Source of the DNA: Candidatus Helarchaeota archaeon
GTDB lineage: Archaea; Asgardarchaeota; Lokiarchaeia; Helarchaeales; RDOG01
Direction of reading: 5' to 3'
NCBI GenBank assembly: GCA_029838215.1
Contig: JALGVI010000010.1
Coordinates: 1-48,394, forward strand
DNA length: 48,394 nt
Below the pieces are notes generated by a model. That model was not told the origin of the DNA and made no database searches. It was given only the letters and a program-made list of their open reading frames with translations. The position numbers and the translations under genes were made by a program. Below, piece after piece: positions 699-25,072 of the stretch. Each line of letters opens with the position of its first letter. Position 1 is the first letter of the stretch.

Positions 699-743
699 CT
701 TGATCAATCCATTCTTCGTGCTTGAAAAGTCCTTTCAGTTTAG

Positions 744-5898: not shown

Positions 5899-6071
5899 CT
5901 CAAGCCAAAATTTTCCGTGAAGTACTTTATCGGTTCAAATATTAATAATCGAATTTATCTTCCTGCAACGGATCTTGAAGTATGTCGTGGATTAGTAAGT
6001 AATTATTATAAAAACAAACGATTCAATCCTTAGATAAGCAACATGAGTTGATAAGGAAAACATGATGGTCG

Positions 6072-7319: not shown

Positions 7320-7326
7320 ATCATTC

Positions 7327-7334
7327 TTTTTTTT
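7327..7334 (+). terminator. Oligo-T tract, candidate archaeal terminator
   Basis: T8 run starting 8 nt after the acyl-CoA dehydrogenase stop codon. Confidence 0.4.
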
Positions 7335-7453
7335 CTCACAAATTCATTTTAATGACATAAATTTATAAGAAGGATCTTAGAAAATACTTAACTAGTATTT
7401 AGACAGATCGCGGTGTTTTTAATCTTGAACGATTTCCCGAGAGAGAATTGGTG

Positions 7454-8311: not shown

Positions 8312-8346
8312 AATTTTAAAATGAATATTTTGTGGATGTTGATAAG

Positions 8347-9408: not shown

Positions 9409-9441
9409 ATTAGGATTAAAAGAAAAAAGGACAGATGCTTC

Positions 9442-10272: not shown

Positions 10273-10303
10273 GAAATCCATGGAAACAGGAAATGAATGC
10301 GCA

Positions 10304-11731
10304 ATGAAAAAAAAAGTAGTTGTAATCGGATCGGGATTGGGTGGAGCCGCAATCGGAGCACTCCTCCAACATCAGGGACGCTTCGATGTCACGCTTTTAG
10401 AAAAAAACAACCTTATAGGTGGACGATATGCCACGTATGAGAAAAAGACCGATGAGGGGATTTTTAAGCTTGACGTTGGCTGTCATTTGATTGCAAATTG
10501 TAACAATGGGACGATGGGTGAAGTTCTAAAAAGAATTGGAAAAAACGATTCAGTTCAATGGTCATATGCACGAAGACCAAAACCGGCGTTTTATTTTTTA
10601 GGGGAGCGCATCGATTTCCCAAAGGAAGTAAATAAGCTCGGCATTCCAAATGAAGATCTTTTCAATTTATTGAACTTGATGCGGGATGTCACTCAGTTCA
10701 CGGAAGAAGACTTGAAAAAACTTGATGATGAACAGGTTGACATGAGAACCTTCTTAAAACGATATACTTCCGATCCAAAAGCATTATCTTTATTCTCATT
10801 TTTTGCAGGGATGGAGTTTGTCATCCCGGATTATTTAACAGCCGCTTCGGAATGGATTGTCTGCCAACGGCAAATGTCCACCAACAAATCGTCAGGATAT
10901 CCGATTGGAGGATGTGGGTCCGTTCCGAGAGCTTATTGCAATAACATTGAGGAGAATGGTGGAAAATTAATATTACAAGCACCCGTGAAAGAGATATTGA
11001 TAGAAAACAACGAGGCGACAGGAGTCAAATTAGAGGACGGGACAGTCCATCCTGCGGACATCGTGATTTCTAATGCGGGTTTCAAGCACACGGTCTTAGA
11101 TCTGGTAGGAAAAGATCATTTTTCAGAAGAGTTCACTCAAAAAGTTGAGAGCTACGAGTATTCGCTTGCGACCTTTCAAATTAAAATTGCCTTGGACGAA
11201 AAAATCACGGACGAAAAGATGATCATGTATATAGGTGAAGAAATTGACGTGGATAGTTTCGATCGGCAAGCCATTTCAGAAATGCTTGCACGTGGAGAAT
11301 ATCCCGAGGAATTTCCGATAGTTTTTGCTCCAATCGTATCCAACATGGATCCTTCTTTGTGTCCGGAGGGAAAACAATTGATTTTTGCGGGTGCAGGATG
11401 CCCGACAGCTGCACAAGGTTTCGATCCAAAAAAGCACCATGAGAAAGTGCAAAACTCGATTTTGAATGGCATTAAAAACGTCCTTCCTAAGATTGAAGAT
11501 CATTTGCTATGGATTGACTCATCAAGTCCGCATGATATCGAGAAGTTCGCCGGAGAAAGCGGAACTGTCATAGGCATCGCCCAAACGATTAATCAAGTCG
11601 GAAAGAATAGGCCAAAACAGGAGCTTCCCATCAAAAATCTTTATTGTTGCTGTGCGGACACGGGCTTGCACGGAATCGGTGGAGAATTGGCAGTGGATAG
11701 TGCACTGCGACTATATAATAAATTAATTTGA
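10304..11731 (+). CDS. Phytoene desaturase/retinol saturase-family FAD oxidoreductase, copy 1
   Basis: Rossmann motif VVVIGSGLGG...LEKNNLIGGRY, plus YPIGGCG and ADIVISNAG. The ATG at 10304 directly precedes the Rossmann strand. Confidence 0.85.
   Translation: MKKKVVVIGSGLGGAAIGALLQHQGRFDVTLLEKNNLIGGRYATYEKKTDEGIFKLDVGCHLIANCNNGTMGEVLKRIGKNDSVQWSYARRPKPAFYFLGERIDFPKEVNKLGIPNEDLFNLLNLMRDVTQFTEEDLKKLDDEQVDMRTFLKRYTSDPKALSLFSFFAGMEFVIPDYLTAASEWIVCQRQMSTNKSSGYPIGGCGSVPRAYCNNIEENGGKLILQAPVKEILIENNEATGVKLEDGTVHPADIVISNAGFKHTVLDLVGKDHFSEEFTQKVESYEYSLATFQIKIALDEKITDEKMIMYIGEEIDVDSFDRQAISEMLARGEYPEEFPIVFAPIVSNMDPSLCPEGKQLIFAGAGCPTAAQGFDPKKHHEKVQNSILNGIKNVLPKIEDHLLWIDSSSPHDIEKFAGESGTVIGIAQTINQVGKNRPKQELPIKNLYCCCADTGLHGIGGELAVDSALRLYNKLI
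11567..11706 (+). repeat. 140-bp near-identical block shared with 12954..13093
   Basis: Manual alignment gives 10 mismatches in 140 bp, and the first 38 bp are identical. Confidence 0.9.
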
Positions 11732-11768
11732 TCTTTATTTTAATTATTCGATTAAGGGAGCATTAACG

Positions 11769-13121
11769 ATGAAAAAAAGAGTAATCATTATCGGATCGGG
11801 TGTTGGTGGAAGCGCAATCGGTGCATTACTCCAGCATCATGGCAATTTTGACGTGACCATTTTTGAAAAAAATAAACTGATAGGTGGACGTTACGCAACA
11901 TACGAAAAAAAAAAGGACGATGGAACTTATAAACTAGATATTGGATGCCACATGATTGCAAATTGTGATAATGGGACGATGGGCACGGTTCTGAAAAAAA
12001 TTGGGAGACCAAAAGCCGTGCAATGGTCTATTGCCAAAAATCCAGCACCGATATTTCACCATAAAGGAAAAAGAATCAAATTTCCCGTTGATTTTTCTCA
12101 GTTAGATATTAGTGAAGACGAAGCATCGAGGCTTCAATCTTTAATGAATGAAATCATGCATTACCCAGAGGAAAAATTGCAAAAATTAGAAGAAGAACAA
12201 GTAGACGTAGGCACGTTTTTAGCACGTTACACGAAAAATCGGAAGGTATTTCCTTTCTTCTTTTTCTACGTTGGCATGGAGCTTGTCGTGCCCGATAATT
12301 TTGCAGCCGCTTCTGAATGGATACGATGTCACGGAACGATGGCCAGAAATGACAAAATTGGATATCCTGTAGGAGGAAGTGGTGCCATCCCAACGGCATA
12401 TTGCAGGAGTATTGAAGAAGATGGTGGGAAAGTTGAATTAAAGGCACCAGTAGAAAGAATTTTGGTGGAGAATAATGAAGCAAGAGGCGTGAAGCTGAAA
12501 GATGGAACGATTTATTCTGCAGATATCGTGATTTCTAATGCAGGGCTTAAACATACGGTCTTGGAACTGGTGGGAAAGGATTACTTTGCGGAAGAATTCG
12601 TGGAACGTGTCAATCAATACATGTATTCCCTTTCCACGTATCAAATCAAGATTGCCTTGGATGAAAAAATAACGGATGAAAAGATGATAATGATTCCTGG
12701 AGACTATGTCTTCATGCCCATGGTTTCAAATTTAGATCCATCGTTATGTCCAGATGGAAAGCAAATCATCATCGCAGGTGCCAGCTGTCCAAACGTGGCA
12801 CAGGGTTTTGATCCCGCAAAACATGATTCGCAAATGAAAGAGGCGATCTTAAGAAGCGTTAAAAAAGTCCTACCCGAGATTGAAGACCACGTCATGTGGA
12901 TTGATGTAGCCAGTCCTAATGATATTGAAAAGCTTGTTGGAGAAGACGGAAACGTCATAGGCATCGCCCAAACGATTAATCAAGTCGGAAAAAATAGACC
13001 AAAACAGGAACTTCCCATCAAAAATCTATATTGTTGCTGTGCGGATACGGGTTTGCACGGAATCGGTGGGGAATTAGCAGCAGATAGTGCACTTAGATTA
13101 TACGAAAAATTGGTTAATTAA
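11769..13121 (+). CDS. Phytoene desaturase/retinol saturase-family FAD oxidoreductase, copy 2
   Basis: IIIGSGVGG...FEKNKLIGGRY and YPVGGSG; colinear paralog of copy 1. Confidence 0.85.
   Translation: MKKRVIIIGSGVGGSAIGALLQHHGNFDVTIFEKNKLIGGRYATYEKKKDDGTYKLDIGCHMIANCDNGTMGTVLKKIGRPKAVQWSIAKNPAPIFHHKGKRIKFPVDFSQLDISEDEASRLQSLMNEIMHYPEEKLQKLEEEQVDVGTFLARYTKNRKVFPFFFFYVGMELVVPDNFAAASEWIRCHGTMARNDKIGYPVGGSGAIPTAYCRSIEEDGGKVELKAPVERILVENNEARGVKLKDGTIYSADIVISNAGLKHTVLELVGKDYFAEEFVERVNQYMYSLSTYQIKIALDEKITDEKMIMIPGDYVFMPMVSNLDPSLCPDGKQIIIAGASCPNVAQGFDPAKHDSQMKEAILRSVKKVLPEIEDHVMWIDVASPNDIEKLVGEDGNVIGIAQTINQVGKNRPKQELPIKNLYCCCADTGLHGIGGELAADSALRLYEKLVN
12954..13093 (+). repeat. Second copy of the 140-bp block
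   Basis: Aligned with 11567..11706. Confidence 0.9.
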
Positions 13122-13168: not shown

Positions 13169-14509
13169 TTATTCAATGACTTCTTTAACGAATTCTCGGA
13201 TGCGTTTTCGGACGCTTCTTGAGCCGATGACGCGGCTATCCATGGTATCGACTTGGAAAAGTAGTGTTGGAGCACCTGTTTCTTCCTTGATTCGTTCTTT
13301 CATCAGATTTGCGATGGCCCAACTGTGCTTGCAACCCATGTGTCCACCCCATATGCAGAAGTCGATGTCATACTCTTTAACGATATTCACGCAGTCATCA
13401 AGATAGAATTCCATTGGACCACGGCTTTGTCGAGCCATTGGCATTTCTAGGACGGTTTTTGCGAGATCTTCGAGCATTGTTTCTTCGCTCTCGATGTTCA
13501 CGGGTTGAGCCATTTGATATCCCATCATGTCCATCACGGTTGAAATTTGAAACTTTTCTTCCATCCAGCCGAAGATCAGGGGATCGAAGAAGATGGGAAT
13601 GTAAACCCAGAAGCATCGATATTTTTCTGTTTTTCCCTTTCGTAGATACTCTTCCATTGGGCTTCTTTTTTGCTTGACGAATTCTTTTGCAGTATCCCGA
13701 ACCCACTTCGAATATTCGATGACTTTTCCCGACAATCCTGCACTGCTCATCAATGTCATGTAAAGCGTGAATGGTGTCATTGAGGTAACGGGACAGGGTT
13801 TATTTTTTAATAGCTCCATGACTTCAAGGATGTATCCTCGAGCAATATTAGAATTTTTAAAGGTTTCTTGTAGTGCCTCGAACGTGATTTTTCGTTTCGT
13901 GCTTTTTTCGATATAATCTATCATGTCCTTTAGCTGTGAGGCACAATATGGAATGACTTGTTCGTCATAAAACTCGTTTTTATCATCGTAATGCCAAGTT
14001 GGAATGTCCATTGTAAAGGTCGGGACGTTATAAATGTGTTGCATTACTTGATATAAAATATTCGTGCTATCACAGGGCTGAGAGGCATAAACGATGAGGT
14101 CCGGATCAGGAGTCTTGTGCTGTAGCGAAGCTCCGATCCAAATTTTTTGTGCGTTGCATTGTTCTCGAGCCAAACCACTCTGTTCTGCGGTATCGATATA
14201 GTCCATGTGAACCTTTGTATTGGCGATGGCAAGAGCCACGGATCCGATTTCTTGGCACATGGGATAGATTCCCGCTGCATAAAAAAGCTCGGGAGGAACG
14301 CAGAAATTATACATGGCGATCGGAGTGTTGGTGTCGATAGCCTTATACATGTTATTCAGGTATTCTATCATTACTTCGATAAATAACGTGTTGAATGTTT
14401 GGCTACCAGGTGAATCAGCCATTGCATCGGCCATTTCTTTTCCAAGCGTGAAGAATTGGATTAAAGTGTCCCAAAGTTCATAATCTCGTTTAAATTCGGT
14501 AACAGTCAT
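13169..14509 (-). CDS. 2-hydroxyacyl-CoA dehydratase / benzoyl-CoA reductase family subunit (alpha/BcrB-like)
   Basis: PPELFYAAGIYP, CNAQK, PCDS and GCKH motifs, with a C-terminal DTMDSR. Confidence 0.8.
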   Translation of the reverse strand: MTVTEFKRDYELWDTLIQFFTLGKEMADAMADSPGSQTFNTLFIEVMIEYLNNMYKAIDTNTPIAMYNFCVPPELFYAAGIYPMCQEIGSVALAIANTKVHMDYIDTAEQSGLAREQCNAQKIWIGASLQHKTPDPDLIVYASQPCDSTNILYQVMQHIYNVPTFTMDIPTWHYDDKNEFYDEQVIPYCASQLKDMIDYIEKSTKRKITFEALQETFKNSNIARGYILEVMELLKNKPCPVTSMTPFTLYMTLMSSAGLSGKVIEYSKWVRDTAKEFVKQKRSPMEEYLRKGKTEKYRCFWVYIPIFFDPLIFGWMEEKFQISTVMDMMGYQMAQPVNIESEETMLEDLAKTVLEMPMARQSRGPMEFYLDDCVNIVKEYDIDFCIWGGHMGCKHSWAIANLMKERIKEETGAPTLLFQVDTMDSRVIGSRSVRKRIREFVKEVIE

Positions 14510-14528
14510 AAAAACACCTTCTTATTTT

Positions 14529-15650
14529 TTATAATCGTTCTATAAATGCTTGAACTCGGGTTTTTAATTGTCCTAGACCTGTAAAGACATATTCACGTTC
14601 CACTTCAAGTGTAGGGACGCCCAGGGCTTTAAGGTCCTTAATGAGCATGTAAATTTCACCAGACCATAGGTCGCAGAATTTCAGGCTTTCGAGAACTACG
14701 CCATCGACATAATATTCCTTGATAAATTTTTTGATTTTTTCAAGTCTCACGGAATGGTCACTATCAGGACATATCATTCTCGGGCAAGGAAGATTCCTCA
14801 AGTAGCGTTCTGCCAATTGTTCGATAGGTGAACCATTTTCTTTGACTAAATTCGTATAATATTTTGTACCAAAGCAATTATAATCCGTGACAACGATTGC
14901 TCCCATATCTTCGATTGTTTGAATGTATTTATAATCATCAATTATGCTGCCCAACACCATTATGCGTGGCTTGTTCTCAATTCCTGGTCTTTGCTTGCAT
15001 TCATCAACAGCTTTTTGAACCATTTGAATGCAGGTTTTTTTGGGCATTGCGGAAGCTGCTATGCTTAAAACTTCGGCTTCGGTTCCCGTTATCTTAGGCA
15101 CTTCTTCTTTCCTTAAATCGGATGCATCTTGAAGAACCTTGCGAAGTTGATTCATTGTTTTTATGGCTTGATTTAATTTTTCATCCGTAATTTGAATGTT
15201 GAAGTGATTTTCTATTGCATTTTTGAGTGAGTTCAGTTCTTTTATGAACCATTTCAATGCACGATCACTTACGTGATGAGGAATGGAAAGGAAATGCATG
15301 AAAGGCATTTTCAACTTATATTTCCAGTTGTCATATGTCCTGCGCACGTGATCGCAACTGTTATAAGAAATCATGCCATCAAGAAAGTCGTACTGATGTT
15401 TTAGCCCCTTATCGAGCGTGTACCGACAAAACGTGCAGTTTAGATTGGACAGAAGACCATCAGAATCAGAAGTGTCATGATGCCCTCTTGCATTCATTCT
15501 TACCGGTAGGATATCTGCAGCGATAATAATTTCTTCAGGGATATATGAACAGAAAAATCCAATAACCTTTCTGGTTTTTTTCCATTCATTGATCCATTGA
15601 TTTGGAACGGGACCTGCCGCTTCAAAAAGATCTTTCCAAGAATTTTCCAT
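14529..15650 (-). CDS. 2-hydroxyacyl-CoA dehydratase / benzoyl-CoA reductase family subunit (beta/BcrC-like)
   Basis: GFFCSYIPEEII, CTFC, SCDHVRR, CPRM, KFCD and QLKTRVQAFIE motifs. Confidence 0.85.
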   Translation of the reverse strand: MENSWKDLFEAAGPVPNQWINEWKKTRKVIGFFCSYIPEEIIIAADILPVRMNARGHHDTSDSDGLLSNLNCTFCRYTLDKGLKHQYDFLDGMISYNSCDHVRRTYDNWKYKLKMPFMHFLSIPHHVSDRALKWFIKELNSLKNAIENHFNIQITDEKLNQAIKTMNQLRKVLQDASDLRKEEVPKITGTEAEVLSIAASAMPKKTCIQMVQKAVDECKQRPGIENKPRIMVLGSIIDDYKYIQTIEDMGAIVVTDYNCFGTKYYTNLVKENGSPIEQLAERYLRNLPCPRMICPDSDHSVRLEKIKKFIKEYYVDGVVLESLKFCDLWSGEIYMLIKDLKALGVPTLEVEREYVFTGLGQLKTRVQAFIERL

Positions 15651-15858: not shown

Positions 15859-17478
15859 TCAGGCTATTTCGTAAAGAGCTTTTCCGGGATGAGCTTCTTT
15901 CCATTCTTCAATACTCATGCCAAACTTATGTTCGAGTTGAGCACGGTACATTGGAAAGCTGTTATACGAGCAGAAGGGAACCAATCGGGTTTTTCCTTTT
16001 GTCTCTTCATCGCCAGGAATCGCCATGTGAATCACACATCGACTCAAGCGTTCTAGATCCATGTTATATGGATCTTGAAAATGCATTCCGGATAACAGTA
16101 AGCTTCGATAATGAAAATCAGCCAATGCCTCGAATGATCCTTTTTGGATGATGTCGAACATTAATTTTTGCACGTTGAATTTACTTGGAGCCTTTTCCTT
16201 ATCAACAGTTTCGTCGAGTAGTTTCAGAAGGCGTGTTATTGCTTTTCCAGGGCGCATCGTACCATTTTGGATGCCTTGTGACATTTCTTCCATTCCTTCC
16301 ATCATCCTATCTACATCAAAGAATCGAGTGATGGGGACCATTTCGCCTTCAACTTCGAAAACATACGTGGCAATACCGCAAGCAGGATGAGCCGTGAATT
16401 CGATGAGGTCCTTACCTTGCAAAGTTTCTAAGATATGAGAGATTGGAAGAACGACGGGTATTGGGCGAAAATCTGAGATTGCGAGTTTTCCATTGCTTTG
16501 ATCTTCGAGATATTTTAAGTATGTCGGGAGGGTAATTCTTGATTTCAGGCGTTCATCTTCGGGTAATGGTTTTGCATTTGGATCGGCAAATCGTCCTACA
16601 AAGGAGATTGGCTGCGTAATCGTGGCACGGACGATATCAATGTTTTTCTCTGCGAATTTAATAACGGGATAAATATCCTGAGTATTATGTCCTGCCATTG
16701 TAAACATGACAAATACTACGCCACCATGACGGTTTTCTTGTATCCCCGCACGTCGCAAGTTATTCAAGATATCTTCAATTAAATGCCAGTTTTCGGGATT
16801 CGTTTGACGCGATACACCGTTAAATTTTAGATATATCGTGTTGATGCCACCTTCTATGAGTTCTTCGGTTAAATCATAGTCTTTACCAATCAAGACACCA
16901 TTCGTGGCTAATTGAATTTGGTTGAATCCAGCTCGATAGCATTCGGCAGCCATTTCGGGTAGTTCAGCACGAACGGTTGGTTCACCACCGGAAAATTGAA
17001 CGGCTTCAACAGGAGCAGGCTTTTGTTCCCTTAGGTCTTTTACCATTTGCTTGAATTGCTTCATGGTGGGTTCGTACACAAAACCTGCAGAAGAGGCATT
17101 GGCGAAACAATACCAACAGTGCAAGTTGCAACGGTTCGTAACGTCGATATTAGCAAGCAATGTATTTGAGTTGTGATTAGAACAAAGTCCACAGCTCATT
17201 GGACAAATGGGATTTTCTTTCGTTATCGAAGGATTATAAACGCCTTTTCCAGTATTAAACCATTTAATGAATTTCTTGTATAGTTCAGAGCTGCTCCAAT
17301 AAATTTCCTTAAATTCACCGTGTTCGGGGCAATTTTTCCGAATATAGGCCTTGCCGTCAATTTCAACAATTTCCGCCGGAACGGGATTTATTTTTCCTTT
17401 TTCTTTTAAACAGAAATGACAGATACTACCAGTTTTACGAAGAACCTTGAGTTCTGTAATTGCCTTTTGATCAGACAT
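15859..17478 (-). CDS. tes: Tetraether lipid synthase (Tes / GDGT-MAS, radical SAM)
   Basis: Rubredoxin-like CHFC...CPEH, auxiliary CPMSCGLC, radical-SAM NRCNLHCWYC, QFSGGEPT, HPACG, MHFQDPYNMD and PFCSYN. Colinear with MJ0619 as I recall that sequence. Confidence 0.9.
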   Translation of the reverse strand: MSDQKAITELKVLRKTGSICHFCLKEKGKINPVPAEIVEIDGKAYIRKNCPEHGEFKEIYWSSSELYKKFIKWFNTGKGVYNPSITKENPICPMSCGLCSNHNSNTLLANIDVTNRCNLHCWYCFANASSAGFVYEPTMKQFKQMVKDLREQKPAPVEAVQFSGGEPTVRAELPEMAAECYRAGFNQIQLATNGVLIGKDYDLTEELIEGGINTIYLKFNGVSRQTNPENWHLIEDILNNLRRAGIQENRHGGVVFVMFTMAGHNTQDIYPVIKFAEKNIDIVRATITQPISFVGRFADPNAKPLPEDERLKSRITLPTYLKYLEDQSNGKLAISDFRPIPVVLPISHILETLQGKDLIEFTAHPACGIATYVFEVEGEMVPITRFFDVDRMMEGMEEMSQGIQNGTMRPGKAITRLLKLLDETVDKEKAPSKFNVQKLMFDIIQKGSFEALADFHYRSLLLSGMHFQDPYNMDLERLSRCVIHMAIPGDEETKGKTRLVPFCSYNSFPMYRAQLEHKFGMSIEEWKEAHPGKALYEIA

Positions 17479-17987
17479 ATTTCTCACTTTTAAATTGTTA
17501 TTTTCTATTTACTTGAAAGGTTGCAGATTTCTTGCCATTGTTTGAGTTCGTCATGATAAATATTCTTTGAACAAAAATTTAGCGTGTTCCTGTATCCCAC
17601 ATTCATATTGTTTTAGCGGAGGTTTTATTTCAACCCTTCAAATAATATTGAATCAACGGAGCTAATTGAAAAAGTCTTAATAAAACAGAATCCCAAACTT
17701 ATTAAGATTCTTAACTTTTTCAATTTTTGCCGAAGTTCTTTTAATTTTTTTAATTAACTCATTATTTGTTTTTAAACCTTTATTTTCAATCCATAAAATA
17801 ATTACTTGGAAGTTTGGACCGTTTTTTTTACCAAGGCATGAAAATGGGATTGATTTTCGTGGTATTGCATTGTTATATCCCCGAGTGATGATTAACTAAA
17901 GAGAAGTATTACTGAATTAAAAAATGATTCCGAGTCGTTATTGAAAAATAAATAAAAATAAGAAAAAAAAATTGAATTTTTAAAGGT

Positions 17988-18917
17988 TTAAATAAACTTG
18001 CTTAGAAGAGGTTCAAATAGTCGTTCGTACAATACTGCCATGCAGTGTACTCCAGCTGCTTTTGTTGTCTTCTTGATTTCGGCTATGAATGGTTCAAAAA
18101 AGTCTACGTTTATTTGATCAATTTTTGCTTTTTTCTCTTCTTTATTAGAGATTTGTTTAGTGGCTTTCATTTTTGCAAGGATTTCCTTAGGGACTGAGAC
18201 TCCAGGGATGTAATCGTTGAAGTATTTGGCAATTCCATAGCTCTTCAGAGGAAAGATGCCCAATAAAACAGGACAATTTAGATATTCCAGATCTTTCAGA
18301 AAGGACTTTGCTTCATCAATGTCGAAAGCTGTTTGAGTTTGGATGAAATCAGCGCCGCATTTTACCTTGCGTTCGACTTTTATTATTTCGGGTTCTCTTG
18401 GAACAGCATTAGGGTTGGCAGCAACGGCAACGTTGATTTCTACTTTCCCGTGAATTTCCCGACCGCTAAAATCCGTTCCTTTATCAATCATGTTTGAAAG
18501 CAAGTGAACGAATTGGGCGGAGTCCAAGTCAAAGACAGGTTTTGCACCACCGTGATCACCCAGGGCGGAGTGATCTCCTGCTAATGCCAAGATGTTTTTG
18601 ATTCCCAAGACAGCCGCACCCAAAACGTCTGCGACCAGACCGATGCGATTACGATCCCGAACAGTCATCTGATAGACTACTTCCAGTCCTGTCTGTTGCT
18701 GGACAAGGTGAGAACATGCTAGAGAACAGGCATATGCCATTGATTGAGGACCATCGGTAACGTTTGCAGCTATAACCCATTTTTTCATTGCATTTGCGGA
18801 TTTTATCAATGTATCTATATTTGTTTCTTTTTCGGGTTCTAGTTCTCCAGAGAATACGAATTTTCCGGCACGGATTGCTTTCATCAAGTTACTAAACGCG
18901 GGTCGTTGATTACTCAT
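17988..18917 (-). CDS. metF: Methylenetetrahydrofolate reductase, MetF subunit
   Basis: SGELEP, NVTD, TVRDRNRIGL, LALAGDH, VFDLDS and GADFIQTQ motifs. Confidence 0.9.
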   Translation of the reverse strand: MSNQRPAFSNLMKAIRAGKFVFSGELEPEKETNIDTLIKSANAMKKWVIAANVTDGPQSMAYACSLACSHLVQQQTGLEVVYQMTVRDRNRIGLVADVLGAAVLGIKNILALAGDHSALGDHGGAKPVFDLDSAQFVHLLSNMIDKGTDFSGREIHGKVEINVAVAANPNAVPREPEIIKVERKVKCGADFIQTQTAFDIDEAKSFLKDLEYLNCPVLLGIFPLKSYGIAKYFNDYIPGVSVPKEILAKMKATKQISNKEEKKAKIDQINVDFFEPFIAEIKKTTKAAGVHCMAVLYERLFEPLLSKFI

Positions 18918-19584
18918 TGGTTATTTCCTCCTCAATATCGAATCTCGGACCCGTCTGCAGCCGATAATCCCGAGGTGGTCGATATCGCCGGTAGATATCC
19001 AGACCACCAGGTCGGTCCTTTAATTTTTTCCATATTTCAATCCACGCACATGGGTGCTTGTAATTTCCGACTTCGCACTTTCCTTCGACCTGACCGCCAC
19101 AGGGTCCATTCATTAGGCTTTTTGCGCAGTTTGCAACAGGACACACGCCACCCGTGTAGCCGAGAAGGCAATCACCGCAGGCTGCGCATTTTTCCACGTG
19201 TCCCTCAATTTTCTTGCCACCCATGAATAGAGTATTCTGGGCAGGAAATACGGCTACTTCAGGAAAAATTTCGGCAAGCATTTGCACGCCAATCCCGCAG
19301 GCCATTGATAAAATGACGTTATGTCCTTTTTCTATCCATGGGCGGAGCGTGGTTGCGGCAATGCTTTCGTCGCACTGTCTCAAGCAAGTAATTGCTTCGA
19401 ATTCGAAATCTTTACCATCTTTTCGGTATTTTAATTCGAGCATCATGCCCATGGTTTTCGCTTCTTTCAAAGATCGTGGTGGCTGACAACAACCATCACA
19501 TCCGACCACGAGGATTTTTTTAGCATTCACGGTATCTAATGACTGCGAGATTTCGTCCAATGGCTTTTCGCGTGTTACAATCAT
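18910..19584 (-). CDS. metV: MetV (Fe-S/Zn partner of MetF)
   Basis: MIVTREKP, GCDGC, RQCD, ACGIGVQ, CAACGDC, CAKSLMNGPCGG and CAW motifs; overlaps metF by 8 nt. Confidence 0.9.
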   Translation of the reverse strand: MIVTREKPLDEISQSLDTVNAKKILVVGCDGCCQPPRSLKEAKTMGMMLELKYRKDGKDFEFEAITCLRQCDESIAATTLRPWIEKGHNVILSMACGIGVQMLAEIFPEVAVFPAQNTLFMGGKKIEGHVEKCAACGDCLLGYTGGVCPVANCAKSLMNGPCGGQVEGKCEVGNYKHPCAWIEIWKKLKDRPGGLDIYRRYRPPRDYRLQTGPRFDIEEEITNE

Positions 19585-19601
19585 AAAAAAATCTCCTTTT
19601 T

Positions 19602-20504
19602 TTAAGTTTCAACTTGTTCTTTTCCTTTAATTTTTTCTAATACTGAATCAACTTTGACTCGGTGGAACTTGAATCCCAATTCATCGGGGGTGATTCCTAT
19701 GGCTAAGCAAATTAGCTCTTCAAGAGAGAGAATTGGCATGTTAAAATCAAGTTCTGAAAAATGACGTTTGATAATTGGTTGTCTCCCATCGAATTGTTGA
19801 TAACAACAGGGGCAGACGAGAGACATGCAATCTACACCCTGCTCTTTTACAGTCATCAACTTTTCCTTACCTAATCGGTATCCGACCATTTGATCAGTTT
19901 TTGTTATGCAAGAACCACAACAGTTCATGGAGTTGGGATAATCGACATTAACTGCACCAATGACTTCCAGAACCTCGTGCATTGATTTTGGTGTTTCGGG
20001 ATCATCGAATCGAACGATTTCGTGCGGGCGAACTAAATGACAACCATAATGCAACCCGACACGCAACCCATTTAATGGACTGACAACGGCTTCTTTGATT
20101 TTTTCAACCCCGATTTCGCGATAAATCACGTGGAATGAGTGCTTGACTTCAATAGAACCTTTATATTCCCGGTCGATTTCTTTTAGGGCTTCATTGACTT
20201 TTTGTTTCAAATCGTCGTTCTCTTTTAACAGGAGATTTACGGTTTGAAGTGTCTCAAAACAACCGGAACACAAGGACAAGATGTCAAGCCCCATTTCTTC
20301 AGCTAACGATATGTTACGTGCTGCGAGGGTTACCCATGTTAAGTGATCAGCAGATTGTACAGTTACGGGATCAGGGCAACAACCTGCGCCTTCAATGTCC
20401 TTTAATGTAAAACCGAAACGATCATAAAGCTTTCGAGCAGCAACTTCCATCTGGGGAAACTGATAAGGGATCAAGCATCCTAGAAATAAAGCGTATTCAG
20501 GCAT
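19602..20504 (-). CDS. hdrB: Heterodisulfide reductase subunit B
   Basis: Two CCG domains: GCCPDP/LCSGC and HYGCHLVRP/NCCG/CPCC. Confidence 0.9.
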   Translation of the reverse strand: MPEYALFLGCLIPYQFPQMEVAARKLYDRFGFTLKDIEGAGCCPDPVTVQSADHLTWVTLAARNISLAEEMGLDILSLCSGCFETLQTVNLLLKENDDLKQKVNEALKEIDREYKGSIEVKHSFHVIYREIGVEKIKEAVVSPLNGLRVGLHYGCHLVRPHEIVRFDDPETPKSMHEVLEVIGAVNVDYPNSMNCCGSCITKTDQMVGYRLGKEKLMTVKEQGVDCMSLVCPCCYQQFDGRQPIIKRHFSELDFNMPILSLEELICLAIGITPDELGFKFHRVKVDSVLEKIKGKEQVET

Positions 20505-21067
20505 TATTTTTTCTCCTCCAACTTTTTTGATACACGTTCTCTTGACTTTAAAAAGTCCATTATTTTGTGAATTTCATCCATATCGATTTTTGGAATGGGA
20601 GGTAGACCCAATTTTGTTCGGACACGGTTAGTCTTTGCTAGTTGGGATGTTATCAAGGCGATTCCTGCACCAAAATCGTAGTTCATATCAATTGCACCTT
20701 TATATGTTTTCCAAGGTAATTCTTCTTTTGAAGTATATCCGTATTCGGCAGAAATGTTTCGTAAAAATGCCAGTATATGAGAAAAGTTTACATTTTTCGG
20801 GCATCTTTCAGTACACGTATGACAATAACTGCAAATCCAGATCGAGGGATCGGAGAGCACTTGGTCCCGAAGACCCATGAGAGTCATTGCTATCAGTCGA
20901 TGAGGAGGGGAGATTATATCTTTCGAGATTGTACACCCCGAAGAGCAAATGCCACATTGGTAACAATTCAAGATGTTGTCCTCACGACATTTCTCAATTA
21001 CTTCTTTCAAGAATTCAGGATCCATGTCTTTCATTGTAACTTTTATTCGAATGTTATCCACGGTCAT
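20504..21067 (-). CDS. hdrC: Heterodisulfide reductase subunit C
   Basis: CYQCGICSSGC and CSYCHTCTERCPK ferredoxin motifs; stop/start overlaps with both neighbours. Confidence 0.9.
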   Translation of the reverse strand: MTVDNIRIKVTMKDMDPEFLKEVIEKCREDNILNCYQCGICSSGCTISKDIISPPHRLIAMTLMGLRDQVLSDPSIWICSYCHTCTERCPKNVNFSHILAFLRNISAEYGYTSKEELPWKTYKGAIDMNYDFGAGIALITSQLAKTNRVRTKLGLPPIPKIDMDEIHKIMDFLKSRERVSKKLEEKK

Positions 21068-24000
21068 TTCTTTACCTCCAAGGGTTTGAGTTGTAAATTT
21101 CCCAATTCTTCGAGTTCTTTAGTAAATTCCGTGACGACTTCTTGGAAGATTTTTCCTTCACTGGCGGAAACCCATTCTAATCGTAATCGCTTGGGATTGA
21201 TGCCCATTTCTTCCAATTTTTTGTGAAGCTTGTTAATTCGTTTCAATGTTTTTTCATTTCCACTGATGTAATGGCAGTCACCAATATGACATCCTCCAAC
21301 AAACACGCCATCAGCACCATCTAGGAATGCTTGGAGAATGAATAGTGGGTCAATACGAGCGCTACACATGACTCGAATTATGCGGATATTTGGAGGATAT
21401 TGAAAACGGCTGACACCAGCGTTGTCTGCACCTGCGTAACAACACCAATTGCATAGAAATCCGACCATTTTTGGTTCAGATCCGGTAGTCTGGATTGCCA
21501 ATGCTTCATCTACCATTGCCGAAATGTCAGGATCGGTGTAATGTCGCATTGTAATGGCACCGGCAGGACAAGCAACAGCACAACAACCACAACCCTTACA
21601 GAGTAATGGATTGACTTCGGAGACCGTCTTGCCTTCGTCCACGTGGATGCCAATGGCACCATATGGGCACAATGGCTGACACACTTGACATCCTATGCAA
21701 ATACTTTGATCGACTTCTGCCGTTATGCCTTCGCTTTCTACCTTGCCCGTGACCAGATATTTCAGAGCTCGACAGGATGCACCCAAGGCTTGACTGATAG
21801 AATCATTCACGCGTTTGGGTTGTTGAGCAACACCAGCCACGAAGACGCCATCAGTGGCAAAATCAACAGGGCGAAGTTTTGGATGAGCTTCGAGAAAGAA
21901 TTTAGAAGAATCAAGAGGTATTTTCAAGAGTTCTGAAATCTTTTTATTATCTTCAAATGGAATTATAGGAGTTCCAAGAACCACGTGATCTACTTCAAGA
22001 TCATACTCAATTGCGGTGCTGGAGTCCATCACGTTAATCAGAAGTTTCGAATCCTGCACGGTAACTTGTGGTTTTTCATTTCCAGAATAACGAATGAATC
22101 GGGCAACTTTACGAGCCTTCCAATAATGAATTTCACCTTCAGGGTCCACGCGAATGTCCCTATACAAGACAAATATTCGTGAATTTGGGTATTTTTCATG
22201 GATTTTCAGGACATATTGTAAGTTCGTGCTGCAACAAGTACTTGCACAGTAAGTAATTCCATCAGGATCTCTTGAGCCAACGCAGTTAATTAGAGCAATA
22301 ACATCTCCATCCTTTATTTTATCGCTTTTCAAAACGTCCACGAATTCGAGATTTGTATAAACGTTTGGGTGTTGTCCATATGCGTACAAGCCGTCTGGTT
22401 TCAGGACCTTTCCTCCGACCGTAACGAGCACGACACCAACTTTGAAAGACTCTTTACCCGAGGGCGTTTCAACATCAATGGCAAAATCTCCAATAGAACC
22501 ATAGACATTTACAACTTCTGAAGAAGTAAATACCTTGATGTTAGTCGTTGATTTGACTTCCTCTTTCAGATGAGTGATGAGTTTTTTGGCATTGATTCGA
22601 TCGAAATTTATTTCTTCCAAGTTGTTAAGTAATCCGCCGAGATCTGGCTCTTTTTCAACGAGATAAACTTGAAATCCCCGACCTGCGATGTTTAAAGCAC
22701 TTGTTAGCCCTGCAACGCCACCTCCAATGATTAGAGCAGCAGGTACCACGTCTGCTTCGAATGTTTGTTGAGGTCTTAAGTACCGGGCTCGACCCACGCT
22801 CATTCGTACTAAGTCCTTGGCTTTTTCAGTAGCTTTTTCGGGTTCTTTCATGTGCACCCAAGAATCCAGTTCTCGAATGCTTGAAAATGTAAAGAGATAT
22901 GGGTTCAATCCTGCTTCACGAATGGTCTCTTGAAAGAGTGGTTCGTGTGTTCGAGGCGTGCATGCTGCCACTATCACGCGATTCAAATCGTGTTCTAAGA
23001 TTTTCTCCTTGATAATTTGTTGGGAATCTTCAGAACACGTGTACAGGTTCGGCATTGCGAACACGACATTTTTCAGACCCTTGGCGTATTCCACGACTGC
23101 GGGAACGTCCACGACTCCACCAATATTGATGCCGCAATGACATACGAATACTCCAATCCTAGGTTCTTCGTTTGGACTGACGATCCTTTCGGGATGCTCA
23201 TACACTTTCTCTTTTGGTGGGAGAGGAATTCCGTGCGTGGCAGCCTTTGCTGAAGCACCTAGTGCTTTTGCTACGGAGTGAGATATGTCTTCAGGACTTT
23301 GGCAACAGCCAACGACATATATGCCTTCTACAGATGAATCGAGTATGTTTGTTGAATCAGGAGTCTTGAAAAAGCCAAATTCATCAGCATCAATCCCTAG
23401 TATCTTCGAAAGCTCCATTGCATTTGCTCTAGGTGTCACTGCAGGACATAAAACTGCTAATTCAAATTCTTCTTCATTAGTCTCAAGATTTTTCAAGTCA
23501 GCATACCTGAGGATTAAGTTATTCGTCTTTGGATCTTCTTCGATTGCGCTTGGCAAGCCTTTTATGTATCGAATGCCGTATTCGTTCTCTGCCCTCACGA
23601 AGAATTCTTCATGACCTTTCCCAATGGTTCGCAAGTCATTATAGAAAATGGTCACGTCAATGTCAGGAGCATGTTCTCTCGTGATGATGGAACTCTTGGT
23701 CGAATACAAGCAACAGAATTTGGAACAATATGGGACGGCATTTTCATCTTGGCAATTGCGACTACCGACGCACAAGATGAAAGCGATCTTATGAGGATGT
23801 TTTTTATCAGATGGTCGTGAAATTTCCCCACCAAATGGTCCAGATGCACTTAAGATCCGCTCGTATTGCAAGGAATCAACCACGTTTTGATATTCACCGT
23901 ATCCCCACCGAGGCGAGACATCTGCGGGATTGATAAGATCAAACCCTGTTGCAACCACGATGGATGCAAATTCTTCTTCAATAAACGTGGGTTTCTGCTC

Positions 24001-24546
24001 AAAATCGATGGCACCAGCAGTACAAAACTTCTCACAAACCCTGCAAATTCCCTTCTGAAAGAATAGGCAATGTTCAGCATCAATTGTTGCCTTACGAGGA
24101 ACTGCTTGTGGAAAAGGAATGTAGACTGCAGTCCTGTTTATGAGATTTGCTTCGAACTCGTGAGGAATCTTCTTGCTCGGACATTTTTCGGTACATACAC
24201 CACATCCGGTGCATTTAGAAGTGTCCACGTATCTGGGTTTTTGCTCGATCTTGACCTTGAAATTGCCATTTGGTAACTTGGTTACCTCGCGAACCTCAGA
24301 ATAAGTGAGCAAGTTGATATTTTCATGTCGAGCTGCTTCTACCATCTTTGGCGCTAAAATGCAAATGGAACAATCTAGCGTGGGGAAGGTCTTGTCCAAT
24401 TGAGCCATTCTACCTCCTATTGAAGGAGAACTCTCAACCAAGTAAGTATCAAATCCTTGATCGCCGAGATCTAGTGCTGCAGTAATACCTGCCACGCCGC
24501 CGCCAATCACTAAGATCTTGCTTGATTTCGTTGAATCTTCACTCAT
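21064..24546 (-). CDS. hdrA: Large two-FAD-domain HdrA fused to C-terminal MvhD
   Basis: Two GGGVAG Rossmann motifs, RMAQLDKTFPTLDCSIC, CVGSR...YCSKFCC and GVFVCHCG. The MvhD part (about 21064-21477) has GFLCNWCCYAGAD, RVMCSARID, GCHIGDCHY and EWVSASEG. Confidence 0.92.
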   Translation of the reverse strand: MSEDSTKSSKILVIGGGVAGITAALDLGDQGFDTYLVESSPSIGGRMAQLDKTFPTLDCSICILAPKMVEAARHENINLLTYSEVREVTKLPNGNFKVKIEQKPRYVDTSKCTGCGVCTEKCPSKKIPHEFEANLINRTAVYIPFPQAVPRKATIDAEHCLFFQKGICRVCEKFCTAGAIDFEQKPTFIEEEFASIVVATGFDLINPADVSPRWGYGEYQNVVDSLQYERILSASGPFGGEISRPSDKKHPHKIAFILCVGSRNCQDENAVPYCSKFCCLYSTKSSIITREHAPDIDVTIFYNDLRTIGKGHEEFFVRAENEYGIRYIKGLPSAIEEDPKTNNLILRYADLKNLETNEEEFELAVLCPAVTPRANAMELSKILGIDADEFGFFKTPDSTNILDSSVEGIYVVGCCQSPEDISHSVAKALGASAKAATHGIPLPPKEKVYEHPERIVSPNEEPRIGVFVCHCGINIGGVVDVPAVVEYAKGLKNVVFAMPNLYTCSEDSQQIIKEKILEHDLNRVIVAACTPRTHEPLFQETIREAGLNPYLFTFSSIRELDSWVHMKEPEKATEKAKDLVRMSVGRARYLRPQQTFEADVVPAALIIGGGVAGLTSALNIAGRGFQVYLVEKEPDLGGLLNNLEEINFDRINAKKLITHLKEEVKSTTNIKVFTSSEVVNVYGSIGDFAIDVETPSGKESFKVGVVLVTVGGKVLKPDGLYAYGQHPNVYTNLEFVDVLKSDKIKDGDVIALINCVGSRDPDGITYCASTCCSTNLQYVLKIHEKYPNSRIFVLYRDIRVDPEGEIHYWKARKVARFIRYSGNEKPQVTVQDSKLLINVMDSSTAIEYDLEVDHVVLGTPIIPFEDNKKISELLKIPLDSSKFFLEAHPKLRPVDFATDGVFVAGVAQQPKRVNDSISQALGASCRALKYLVTGKVESEGITAEVDQSICIGCQVCQPLCPYGAIGIHVDEGKTVSEVNPLLCKGCGCCAVACPAGAITMRHYTDPDISAMVDEALAIQTTGSEPKMVGFLCNWCCYAGADNAGVSRFQYPPNIRIIRVMCSARIDPLFILQAFLDGADGVFVGGCHIGDCHYISGNEKTLKRINKLHKKLEEMGINPKRLRLEWVSASEGKIFQEVVTEFTKELEELGNLQLKPLEVKK

Positions 24547-25072
24547 GGTAACTTACCTTCCACTAGAAATACCCAGACTCAAAATTGAACATGAAAGTTA
24601 AATCCTGAGCTGAGTCATTCAAGCATCATTTTGTAATACTTTCTTGAATTTTAATTTCCGAATTAAGAATGTATATTAAATTCTTTCTTGCGGTTTGCGT
24701 AATTTAAACCCCTTTTTAATTACGGGAATCGGACGACTCTTTACTGAGATCGTCATTGAACTGTTTTTTGAACTTCAAAATTTAAAAATCTTTTGTGAGG
24801 CAATTCTTGAAAAAAAACACGCTTCATTGATCTAAAGTTATTCATGGCTTCTAAACATCACGTGTAAGTGCAGATCTTGAGCATCGTAATTTATACCACT
24901 TAAATACCTTAAAAAACGCTCATTTTTCAGAAAATTCACGTTCATAAGAACACTATTTAACGTAGAATGGTAATTCTTGATCGAGATGGAAATAAATTCG
25001 TCATTAGTCAAAAAATATATTGCCAAATTCTTAATAAAATTTTAAGGTTCGTTTTCAAGAAAAAAGGCGAAA

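What the first reader, a model, noticed from the sequence alone, without database searches (positions are those of the whole stretch)
17988..24546. Acetogen-type HdrA-MvhD/HdrC/HdrB/MetV/MetF operon in an archaeon
Seen: five co-oriented genes with 4-, 1- and 8-nt overlaps and one 17-nt gap, and a two-FAD HdrA fused to MvhD. Known: hdrCBA-mvhD-metVF encodes a multimeric, proposed electron-bifurcating methylene-THF reductase in acetogens such as Moorella thermoacetica, whereas archaea typically use F420-dependent Mer on H4MPT. Inference: this archaeon runs a folate-based methyl branch coupled to flavin-based bifurcation, with a fused and reordered architecture.
Basis: partly seen in the sequence, partly recalled or inferred. 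Interest (0 to 1): 0.7.

Follow-up and report, generated by a model that had tools for sequence, protein, structure and literature searches.

The report
Asgard Hdr-linked MetVF methylene-pterin reductase operon
An Asgard (Loki-class) archaeon carries a five-gene operon that joins a methylene-tetrahydropterin reductase (MetVF) to an electron-splitting heterodisulfide-reductase core.

Summary
Five co-oriented minus-strand genes (24546-17988) encode a 1160-aa double HdrA fused to MvhD, then HdrC, HdrB, MetV and MetF. The junctions are 4- and 1-nt overlaps, a 17-nt gap and an 8-nt overlap.

The cluster is conserved. MetF orthologues of this clade lie beside the same fused HdrA in dozens of Asgard genomes, and similar links occur in Syntrophoarchaeum, Bathyarchaeia and other archaea. 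This scan has already reported the same kind of cluster on other DNA (Bathyarchaeia, Syntrophoarchaeum, Thermoplasmata and another Asgard genome).

The gene set matches the acetogen "Hdr-type" methylene-THF reductase. However, this genome has an H4MPT methyl branch with two tandem Mer genes, Mtd, Mch, CdhDE and RFAP synthase, and no Fhs was found. It also has FolD, FolP and PurH, so a folate pool is plausible.

In a related Loki family, Mer was found in 0 of 92 genomes and MetF in 89 of 92. In another Asgard genome metVF, hdrA-C-B and two mer genes form one cluster.

My best reading is a one-sided, flavin-based electron-bifurcating HdrA/C/B core wired to MetVF, probably acting on methylene-H4MPT. 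The pterin and the redox partners remain unresolved. I class it as a new variant of a known kind, of moderate interest.

The parts
21064..24546 (-). hdrA2D: a 1160-aa fusion of two HdrA modules plus MvhD. Module 1 (about residues 9-436) has no N-terminal domain. It carries the CSIC motif (C59/C62, equivalent to Cys194/197), the inserted 2x[4Fe-4S] ferredoxin domain (C112-C175) and the bifurcating-flavin signature E229/K284. Module 2 (about residues 460-1005) has the N-terminal cluster domain (C469, C471, C504, C529) and a C-terminal 2x[4Fe-4S] domain (C950-C993). It lacks Cys197, the inserted ferredoxin domain and the E/K signature (V736/Q777). The MvhD [2Fe-2S] domain spans 1024-1155.
   Evidence: alignment to 5odc_A; module 1 against module 2; all ligands and E229/K284 invariant in 22 MetVF-linked orthologues. 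The E356/K409 signature is taken from PMC9430772.
20504..21067 (-). hdrC: 187 aa with two CX2CX2CX3C motifs (C35-C45, C79-C89). It overlaps hdrA2D by 4 nt.
19602..20504 (-). hdrB: 300 aa with both CCG motifs complete (C10, C42, C43, C79, C82; C155, C195, C196, C231, C234). It aligns end to end with methanogen HdrB and overlaps hdrC by 1 nt.
   Evidence: 8rvu_b, E 2e-82, residues 3-294.
18910..19584 (-). metV: 224 aa, DUF5981, with 12 conserved cysteines. It starts 17 nt after hdrB.
   Evidence: No solved homologue was found.
17988..18917 (-). metF: 309 aa, MTHFR family. It belongs to the 'uncultured-archaea/ANME-1-type' MetF clade and overlaps metV by 8 nt.
17940..17987 (-). T-rich tract directly after the metF stop codon, a likely transcription end (inferred).
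   Evidence: Sequence read. Not tested experimentally.
24547..25072 (-). A/T-rich intergenic region of 526 nt upstream of hdrA2D, shared with a divergent gene. It is the putative promoter region (TTTAATATAC at 24680-24671; GGAAGGT about 10 nt before the ATG). Inferred only.
   Evidence: Sequence read. No archaeal promoter tool was available.

Best explanation
The five genes form one operon for an Hdr-type MetVF methylene-tetrahydropterin reductase.

The fused HdrA2D is an intramolecular pseudo-dimer of HdrA. It holds exactly one copy of each accessory domain: one N-terminal cluster domain, one inserted ferredoxin domain, one C-terminal ferredoxin domain and one MvhD. It has one flavin with the bifurcation signature. 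With HdrC and HdrB it forms a one-sided flavin-based electron-bifurcation core with three ports: a ferredoxin port, the HdrCB thiol/disulfide port and the MvhD port.

MetV (Fe-S/Zn) wires MetF (flavin, MTHFR fold) into this core. The methylene/methyl step of the Wood-Ljungdahl methyl branch is thereby coupled to ferredoxin instead of F420 or NAD(P)H.

The C1 carrier is most likely H4MPT. That would make this a second, F420-independent route beside the two Mer enzymes of this genome, and the only candidate found in those Loki relatives where Mer was not found.

Shown: the gene set, cofactor ligands, conservation and genome context.

Inferred: the physical complex, the direction of electron flow, the pterin and the thiol/disulfide partner.
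For: - Operon anatomy and intact cofactor sites. All Fe-S cysteines and E229/K284 are invariant in 22 MetVF-linked orthologues.
- Conservation: hdrA2D-hdrC-hdrB-metV-metF or hdrA2D-metV-metF occurs in relatives and in at least 24 named Asgard MAG loci. In the MetF tree the window copy sits in a 96-99% supported clade of 33-34 rows, 26 of which have HdrA within 3 kb.
- The link recurs in Syntrophoarchaeum, Halobacteriota and Bathyarchaeia loci. It has been noted in print for Syntrophoarchaeum (PMC9012536).
- For H4MPT:
  - Loki family f4 has Mer in 0/92 genomes, MetF in 89/92 and HdrA2D in 89/92. In the 41-genome sample it has Fhs in 0/31 and Mch in 30/31.
  - G063 has metV-metF-hdrA2D-hdrC-hdrB-mer-mer on one strand.
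  - G003 and G006 have the second MetVF pair beside tandem Mer, and G001 has Mer 4 kb from hdrA2D-metVF.
  - The clade is separated by a long, fully supported branch from the folate-type Methanosarcina MetF.
- In Sporomusa ovata, pull-downs show that MetVF contacts HdrA, HdrB and MvhD (PMC9430772).
Against: - No biochemical datum exists for any archaeal member.
- Every characterised MetF/MetVF uses H4F.
- This genome also has FolD, a true FolP and PurH, so folate is a live alternative.
- Mer and MetF coexist in many Asgard families (f11, f12, f13, f16, f17, f21, f22). MetF is therefore not simply a Mer substitute.
- Thermodynamics (established potentials: about -320 mV for CH2/CH3-H4MPT, -200 mV for H4F): methylene-H4MPT is a poor high-potential acceptor for bifurcation from H2 or F420H2. 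An H4MPT model therefore needs the HdrB disulfide couple, whose substrate is unknown. McrA was not found.
- In some relatives hdrCB is not adjacent to hdrA2D-metVF.
- In S. ovata the Hdr proteins did not co-purify stably with MetVF.
Confidence: 0.5

Rival explanations
1. This is a folate-dependent, acetogen-like bifurcating methylene-H4F reductase. A donor docked at MvhD or HdrA (H2 through a hydrogenase, F420H2 through an FrhB-like subunit, or NADH) feeds the bifurcating flavin. One electron path goes to ferredoxin. The other goes through HdrC, HdrB and MetV to MetF, and methylene-H4F (-200 mV) is the high-potential acceptor.
For: - The gene order hdrA2D-hdrC-hdrB-metV-metF mirrors such a linear path.
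- FolD, FolP (TIGR01496, 243 bits against a cut-off of 162.6) and PurH are present.
- FolD is found in 40 of 41 relatives.
- In G032 an FrhB-like gene overlaps the start of hdrA2D. Bathyarchaeia loci have FrhB-like genes and Fd-MvhD genes beside metVF.
- The potentials favour H4F as the exergonic acceptor.
- All characterised MetVF enzymes use H4F (PMC9430772).
Against: - Fhs was not found here, nor in 38 of 41 relatives, so there is no complete folate methyl branch from formate.
- CODH/ACS is of the archaeal Cdh type, and the H4MPT branch is present.
- No donor gene lies in this operon.
- Pfam finds no GltD/NfnB-like NAD(P)H-binding family in HdrA2D.
- Only one weak [NiFe] large-subunit match exists in the genome.
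- mer genes are clustered with metVF and hdr in other Asgard genomes.
Confidence: 0.3
2. Co-location without a stable complex. MetVF works alone as a reduced-ferredoxin-dependent reductase, like the type II MetVF of Clostridium ljungdahlii. The Hdr core reduces or oxidises a separate thiol/disulfide, and the genes are merely co-regulated because both serve redox balance.
For: - A second MetVF pair without Hdr exists in this genome (C119) and in most relatives.
- HdrA2D-type proteins are far more widespread than the MetVF link. They occur in 184 of 301 Asgard genomes, often in two copies. This genome holds 14 MvhD domains.
- hdrA2D-hdrC-hdrB also pairs with FrhB-like genes without MetVF.
- S. 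ovata MetVF purifies without Hdr and uses reduced ferredoxin.
Against: - The tight translational coupling (overlaps of 4, 1 and 8 nt) argues against independence.
- The adjacency persists over a deep MetF clade and in several archaeal phyla.
- S. ovata pull-downs show contacts.
Confidence: 0.13
3. A purely anabolic role. The complex makes methyl-H4F (or methyl-H4MPT) for methionine and SAM synthesis using low-potential electrons.
For: - In Methanosarcina, MetF/MetV belong to an anabolic folate cluster (PMC9012536).
- An AsnC/Lrp-type regulator follows metF in nearly all f4 relatives, which hints at amino-acid-linked control.
Against: - A five-subunit bifurcating machine is out of proportion for a small anabolic flux.
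- In the sample, three of the six other genomes of the window's own order gave no MetF match (G002, G004, G005), so it is not a universal housekeeping need.
- The clade is far from the Methanosarcina anabolic MetF.
- There is no anabolic folate gene neighbourhood here.
Confidence: 0.07

Closest known systems
Hdr-type (type IV) methylene-THF reductase, HdrCBA-MvhD-MetVF, of Moorella thermoacetica and Sporomusa ovata (Mock et al. 2014 as cited in PMC9430772; PMC9430772)
   Same: The same six functional parts (HdrA, HdrB, HdrC, MvhD, MetV, MetF) lie in one cluster. HdrA has two flavin modules. MetV/MetF are of the MetVF type: DUF5981 plus an MTHFR that scores closer to the Firmicutes-type model (NF006396, 213 bits) than to the E. 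coli type (TIGR00676, 63 bits).
   Different: - The host is an archaeon.
- MvhD is fused to HdrA.
- The order is hdrA-C-B-metV-metF instead of hdrC-B-A-mvhD-metV-metF.
- Pfam finds no GltD/NfnB-like NAD(P)H-binding family, whereas an NAD(P)H site is predicted in Moorella HdrA.
- The inserted ferredoxin domain is kept, whereas the methanogen-like C-terminal part of both acetogen HdrAs lacks it.
- The genome has an H4MPT branch and no Fhs was found.
- The MetF clade consists of sequences from uncultured archaea.
MvhADG-HdrABC of hydrogenotrophic methanogens (PDB 5ODC, 8RVU, 7BKB)
   Same: - HdrA modules align at E 1e-157 to 1e-213, MvhD at 1e-52 and HdrB at 2e-82.
- All cluster ligands, both CCG motifs and the E356/K409 flavin signature are present.
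   Different: - One polypeptide replaces the HdrA homodimer, with each accessory domain present once (one-sided).
- There are no hydrogenase genes in the operon.
- McrA was not found, so the HdrB substrate is unknown.
- MetVF is encoded where a donor or acceptor module would be expected.
MetF/MetV of ANME-1, Ca. Syntrophoarchaeum and Ca. Alkanophaga, and the metFV-hdrA-mvhD cluster of Syntrophoarchaeum (PMC9012536; PMC10322722)
   Same: - They belong to the same archaeal MetF clade, which includes Asgard, Bathyarchaeia and Syntrophoarchaeia.
- MetF is proposed there to act on H4MPT in place of Mer.
- Mer and MetF coexist in Alkanophaga as they do here.
   Different: - Here HdrC and HdrB are part of the operon, and HdrA is a single fused pseudo-dimer with MvhD.
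- The host has no Mcr and is not an alkane or methane oxidiser.
HdrA2B2C2 of Methanosarcina acetivorans (F420H2-dependent, HdrA fused to MvhD; PMC5296606)
   Same: - ORF1 passes the NCBIfam HdrA2 model (1157 bits against 1100).
- It is an HdrA-MvhD fusion encoded with its own HdrB and HdrC.
- Asgard relatives pair the same core with FrhB-like genes.
   Different: - This protein has two HdrA modules instead of one.
- It is linked to MetVF.
- No heterodisulfide-producing Mcr was found in the genome.

Membership tests
Hdr-type (type IV) MTHFR, MetVF-HdrCBA-MvhD | metV, metF, hdrA, hdrB, hdrC and mvhD encoded together in one transcription-unit-like cluster | tested here: met
   Junctions are -4, -1, +17 and -8 nt. 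MvhD is present as the C-terminal domain of HdrA.
Hdr-type (type IV) MTHFR, MetVF-HdrCBA-MvhD | MetF of the MTHFR family with conserved active-site acidic and Gln residues, and MetV (DUF5981) with cysteine clusters | tested here: met
   PF02219 E 1e-32 and PF12225 E 1e-28. E25, E27, D115, Q193 and Q195 are invariant in MetF. Twelve conserved Cys are found in MetV. Assigning these residues to the catalytic roles known from E. coli MetF is my inference.
Hdr-type (type IV) MTHFR, MetVF-HdrCBA-MvhD | Substrate is methylene-tetrahydrofolate | not testable with these tools
   Genome context is mixed. Fhs was not found, while FolD, FolP and PurH are present. Mer, Mtd, Mch, Cdh and RFAP synthase are also present.
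Hdr-type (type IV) MTHFR, MetVF-HdrCBA-MvhD | NAD(P)H-binding site in HdrA, predicted for Moorella thermoacetica HdrA (both acetogen HdrAs show NADH:benzyl viologen oxidoreductase activity) | tested here: not met
   Pfam and NCBIfam show only the two HdrA-type FAD modules, ferredoxin domains and FlpD. There is no GltD/NfnB-like family. The description of Moorella HdrA comes from PMC9430772.
Hdr-type (type IV) MTHFR, MetVF-HdrCBA-MvhD | Physical association of MetVF with the Hdr and MvhD proteins | not testable with these tools
   Only gene linkage and its conservation are available. This needs co-purification or a structure.
Bifurcating HdrABC (methanogen type) | HdrA with FAD, Fe-S ligands and the E356/K409 bifurcating-flavin signature | tested here: met
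   E229/K284 are in module 1 only; module 2 has V736/Q777. Both residues are invariant in 22 orthologues.
Bifurcating HdrABC (methanogen type) | HdrB with two complete CCG motifs, and HdrC with two [4Fe-4S] motifs | tested here: met
Bifurcating HdrABC (methanogen type) | Equivalog-level scores for the CoB-CoM heterodisulfide reductase subunits | tested here: not met
   HdrB scores 322.8 bits against a cut-off of 345, and HdrC 82.5 against 160. Only the HdrA2 'exception' model is passed. McrA was not found.
Archaeal 'ANME-1/uncultured archaea' MetF clade (PMC9012536 Fig. 5C) | Branches with Asgard, Bathyarchaeia and Syntrophoarchaeia MetF, apart from the Methanosarcina folate-type MetF | tested here: met
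   In the tree of 109 rows the clade has 100% SH-aLRT support and lies on a long branch from the Methanosarcina sequences. Named records are listed.
[quoted passage not shown] | Fhs, FolD, MetF and a methyl-H4F:corrinoid methyltransferase all present | tested here: not met
   Fhs was not found (genome 94.3% complete). FolD is present. The strong Pterin_bind match is a DHPS, not AcsE.
[quoted passage not shown] | Mer, Mtd, Mch, CdhD/E and methanopterin biosynthesis present | tested here: met
   I did not search for Ftr or Fwd.

The most novel reading that the evidence does not exclude
MetVF docks at the MvhD port in the place that the hydrogenase or formate dehydrogenase occupies in methanogen complexes. 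The methyl-/methylene-H4MPT couple (about -320 mV) would then be the mid-potential substrate of the bifurcating flavin.

The reaction would be: 2 CH3-H4MPT + oxidised ferredoxin + R-S-S-R' <-> 2 CH2=H4MPT + reduced ferredoxin + 2 thiols.

This would be a new bifurcation reaction, driven by a C1-pterin. It would let Asgard archaea run the methyl branch in either direction without F420, and it would require an as yet unknown Asgard thiol/disulfide carrier.
Probability: 0.15. Interest if true: 0.8.

Novelty: new variant of a known kind. Interest (0 to 1): 0.5.

Why it matters
How Asgard archaea balance electrons in their Wood-Ljungdahl pathway bears on models of their syntrophy and of eukaryogenesis. 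In the sampled Loki family f4, Mer was found in 0 of 92 genomes. This Hdr-linked MetVF and its unlinked paralogue are the only candidates I found there for the methylene-to-methyl step. If the enzyme is ferredoxin-coupled, it changes the predicted ATP and redox budget of these organisms.

The operon is compact: five genes, one fused HdrA, and all cofactor sites intact. That makes it a practical target for heterologous expression. Such work could settle two open questions. Can MetF-type enzymes use H4MPT, as has been proposed for ANME-1 since 2012? And what does the Hdr module of 'type IV' methylene reductases actually do?

Tried and rejected
1. Complex prediction on MetF + MetV + the MvhD domain (alignments A2-A4) returned 'no answer' (score 0.30, mark 0.32). 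It counts neither for nor against binding.
3. Early idea: the downstream radical-SAM gene with a 'Zn_ribbon_HMPTM' domain was a methanopterin methylase pointing to H4MPT. Rejected. NCBIfam identifies it as tetraether lipid synthase Tes (562 bits against 450), and the neighbour is not conserved in relatives.
4. Idea: Mer and MetF are strictly complementary. This holds in the 41-genome Loki-class sample but fails across the phylum, where many families carry both.
5. A single-protein scan of genome contigs found only Methanosarcina MetF at 37-42% identity. An alignment query was needed.
6. No tool gave me named Moorella or Sporomusa sequences.
7. Spang et al. 2019 (DOI look-up) is not held. Full-text searches found no paper that describes this Asgard operon.
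8. No tRNA or Rfam element lies in the window.
Full report
OBSERVATION

The window holds five consecutive minus-strand ORFs: 24546-21064 (1160 aa), 21067-20504 (187 aa), 20504-19602 (300 aa), 19584-18910 (224 aa) and 18917-17988 (309 aa).

Pfam and NCBIfam identify them as follows:
- A double HdrA with a C-terminal FlpD/MvhD domain. It scores 1157 bits against NF040770 HdrA2 (cut-off 1100), and FlpD matches at E 9e-55.
- An HdrC-like dicluster protein.
- HdrB with two CCG domains (TIGR03288, 322.8 bits, just under its cut-off of 345).
- MetV (DUF5981).
- MetF (MTHFR, E 1e-32).

A T-rich tract follows the metF stop codon, and the next gene lies 500 nt away. That next gene is a tetraether lipid synthase, Tes, and is unrelated to the operon. 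Ras-family GTPases on the same contig and the named relatives (Promethearchaeota MAGs) place the contig in an Asgard archaeon of the Loki class.

ANATOMY OF THE Hdr CORE

I aligned ORF1 to the solved Methanothermococcus HdrA (5ODC) and aligned its two halves to each other.

Module 1 (residues 9-436):
- It lacks the N-terminal cluster domain.
- It keeps the CSIC motif (C59/C62, equivalent to Cys194/197) and the inserted 2x[4Fe-4S] ferredoxin domain.
- It keeps E229/K284, the counterparts of E356/K409, which mark bifurcating flavins (PMC9430772).

Module 2 (residues 460-1005):
- It has no Cys197, no inserted ferredoxin domain and no E/K signature (V736/Q777).

MvhD follows at residues 1024-1155. 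The polypeptide is therefore an intramolecular HdrA pseudo-dimer with one copy of each accessory domain. This is the complementary pattern that Chadwick et al. described for tandem and fused HdrA in ANME, but with the two modules in the opposite order to their HdrA3/4.

HdrB aligns end to end with methanogen HdrB (E 2e-82) and has both CCG motifs complete. HdrC has both cluster motifs. All of these ligands, and E229/K284, are invariant in 22 MetVF-linked orthologues.

Pfam and NCBIfam show no GltD/NfnB-like NAD(P)H-binding family, unlike the Moorella HdrA described in PMC9430772, for which an NAD(P)H site is predicted. The inserted ferredoxin domain, which the methanogen-like C-terminal part of both acetogen HdrAs lacks, is present here.

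CONSERVATION

- MetF orthologues (59-69% identity) occur in 38 of 41 sampled relatives.
- Synteny maps show hdrA2D-hdrC-hdrB-metV-metF in many Asgard MAGs. The variant hdrB-hdrA'-hdrA''-hdrA2D-metV-metF occurs in others, including Loki_b32.
- hdrA2D-metV-metF occurs in the one genome of the window's own family (G001).
- Conserved-neighbour clustering over 27 loci finds only six recurring genes: these five, plus an AsnC/Lrp regulator downstream of metF. The regulator is present in 26 of the 27 loci and absent only in the window.
- In a MetF tree of 109 sequences, the window copy lies in a 96-99% supported clade of 33-34 rows. Twenty-six of them have HdrA within 3 kb, and several of the others are cut by contig or locus ends.
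- The whole archaeal clade is separated by a long, 100% supported branch from the folate-type Methanosarcina MetF.
- Hdr links also occur in Syntrophoarchaeum, two Halobacteriota MAGs and Bathyarchaeia.
- Across 301 Asgard genomes the full-length fused HdrA2D is found in 184 and this MetF clade in 197.

GENOME CONTEXT AND THE COFACTOR QUESTION

The genome is 3.62 Mb, 94.3% complete and 6.2% contaminated.

For an H4MPT branch:
- Two tandem Mer genes above the curated cut-off.
- Mtd, Mch and CdhD/E.
- RFAP synthase beside a DHPS-like gene.

For a folate pool:
- FolD.
- A true DHPS next to PurH and CofE.

Not found: Fhs and McrA.

There is also a second, unlinked MetVF pair on a short contig. The organism thus probably makes both H4MPT and a folate.

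Among relatives:
- Mer was found only in the window's own order (7/7 genomes). It was found in 0/31 genomes of Loki family f4, and in 0/92 in the larger sample.
- Family f4 has Mch in 30/31, FolD in 31/31, Fhs in 0/31 and MetF in 89/92.
- In that family, MetVF is therefore the only candidate I found for the methylene-H4MPT reductase step. This is the argument made in print for ANME-1 and Syntrophoarchaeum.

Gene clustering points the same way:
- G063 has metV-metF-hdrA2D-hdrC-hdrB-mer-mer on one strand.
- G003 and G006 have the second MetVF pair next to tandem Mer.
- G001 has Mer 4 kb from hdrA2D-metVF.

Against a simple substitution, Mer and MetF coexist in many Asgard families, as they do in Ca. 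Alkanophaga.

MECHANISM

The core has three ports: the inserted ferredoxin domain, HdrCB and MvhD.

The same core pairs with FrhB-like genes in other Asgard genomes (G047 and G044; G032 has both FrhB-like and MetVF). This genome holds 14 MvhD domains but only one weak [NiFe] large-subunit match. HdrA2D-C-B therefore looks like a modular platform, with MetVF as one of its exchangeable substrate modules.

Two topologies fit the data:
(a) The acetogen-like one. A donor sits at MvhD or HdrA, and the methylene-pterin is the high-potential acceptor reached through HdrC, HdrB and MetV. By the established potentials this favours H4F (-200 mV).
(b) MetVF sits at the MvhD port, and the CH3/CH2-H4MPT couple (about -320 mV) is the mid-potential substrate between ferredoxin and a disulfide at HdrB.

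I cannot decide between them.

My best reading (confidence 0.5) is a physically coupled, ferredoxin-linked MetVF-Hdr methylene-tetrahydropterin reductase acting in the archaeal methyl branch, probably on H4MPT. The rivals are:
- A folate-dependent acetogen-like version (0.3).
- Co-location without a complex (0.13).
- A purely anabolic role (0.07).

WHAT IS KNOWN

- The Hdr-type MTHFR is established genetically in Moorella. In Sporomusa it is supported by pull-downs and membrane assays (PMC9430772).
- The archaeal MetF clade, including Asgard members, and the Syntrophoarchaeum metFV-hdrA-mvhD cluster are in print (PMC9012536).
- Asgard metF has been noted (PMC12222021, PMC11291895).
- I found no paper that describes this Asgard operon or its fused one-sided HdrA. 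The searchable library excludes many subscription papers.
- Earlier reports of this scan describe the same kind of cluster in Bathyarchaeia, Syntrophoarchaeum, Thermoplasmata and another Asgard genome.

I therefore rate it a new variant of a known kind, of moderate interest.

LIMITS

- The complex prediction gave no verdict.
- No named acetogen sequences were available for a joint phylogeny.
- Related genomes are not independent samples.

Noticed in passing
window 15859-17487 (-): A radical-SAM protein of 542 aa directly downstream of the operon is a tetraether (GDGT) lipid synthase, Tes (NF045702, 562 bits against a cut-off of 450). Its Pfam 'Zn_ribbon_HMPTM' hit could mislead an annotator towards methanopterin biosynthesis.
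   Followed up: partly
window 13169-15650 (-): Two adjacent HGD-D family genes are present. They are like the double-cubane-cluster reductase, benzoyl-CoA reductase BzdN/O or 2-hydroxyacyl-CoA dehydratase families, and all score below the curated cut-offs. No activator ATPase was seen among the neighbours I scanned.
   Followed up: partly
L121 (G063:C12) 3440-12837 (+): Another Asgard family has metV-metF-hdrA2D-hdrC-hdrB followed by two tandem mer genes on one strand. This directly clusters MetVF, Hdr and the F420-dependent methylene-H4MPT reductase.
   Followed up: partly
L123 (G047:C25) 2750-8466; L126 (G044:C14) 2672-8475; L025 12707-13849: The same hdrA2D-hdrC-hdrB core is followed by an FrhB-like gene in two genomes. 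In G032 it is preceded by one (NF006807, 206 bits, below cut-off). This suggests F420-linked versions of the core.
   Followed up: partly
own genome, 14 places: The genome encodes 14 FlpD/MvhD domains, several of them fused into frames of 700-1160 aa. Only one weak [NiFe] hydrogenase large-subunit match was found (C49:14466-14687). MvhD seems to serve as a general adaptor here.
   Followed up: no
L025 5606-6067, and equivalent places in about 40 loci: An AsnC/Lrp-family regulator sits directly downstream of metF in nearly all relatives of Loki family f4. It is missing at this position in the window.
   Followed up: partly
L028 (G001:C3) 618-2258 (-): In the window's family-mate the Mer gene is 546 aa. 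It has an N-terminal extension of about 220 aa with no Pfam match, and it lies 4 kb upstream of hdrA2D-metV-metF.
   Followed up: no
L101, L069, L063 (record titles): Public MAG records titled 'Candidatus Deferrimicrobium sp.', 'Nanopelagicaceae bacterium' and 'Pirellulales bacterium' carry contigs with Asgard- or archaeal-type MetVF/Hdr clusters. The MetF of L101 is identical to that of L035 (genome G003, same order as the window), and the two contigs have the same length. The record names are probably mis-assignments or mis-binned contigs.
   Followed up: no
G252:C9, G019:C195, G297:C106 and others: In many f4 genomes the second HdrA2D-like match is read through one in-frame TAG, TGA or TAA. 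These could be adjacent split hdrA genes or, for TGA, selenocysteine (Asgard HdrA selenoproteins are reported in PMC11227280).
   Followed up: no
window 18001-24000: The operon has a somewhat higher G+C (0.42-0.43) than most of the window (0.35-0.41). I did not test whether this reflects codon bias or foreign origin.
   Followed up: no
L118 (G000:C39) 3138-9232: The same genome has a second Hdr cluster. There the two HdrA modules are separate genes (446 and 556 aa) after hdrC-hdrB, and an FrhB-like gene lies divergently beside them.
   Followed up: partly
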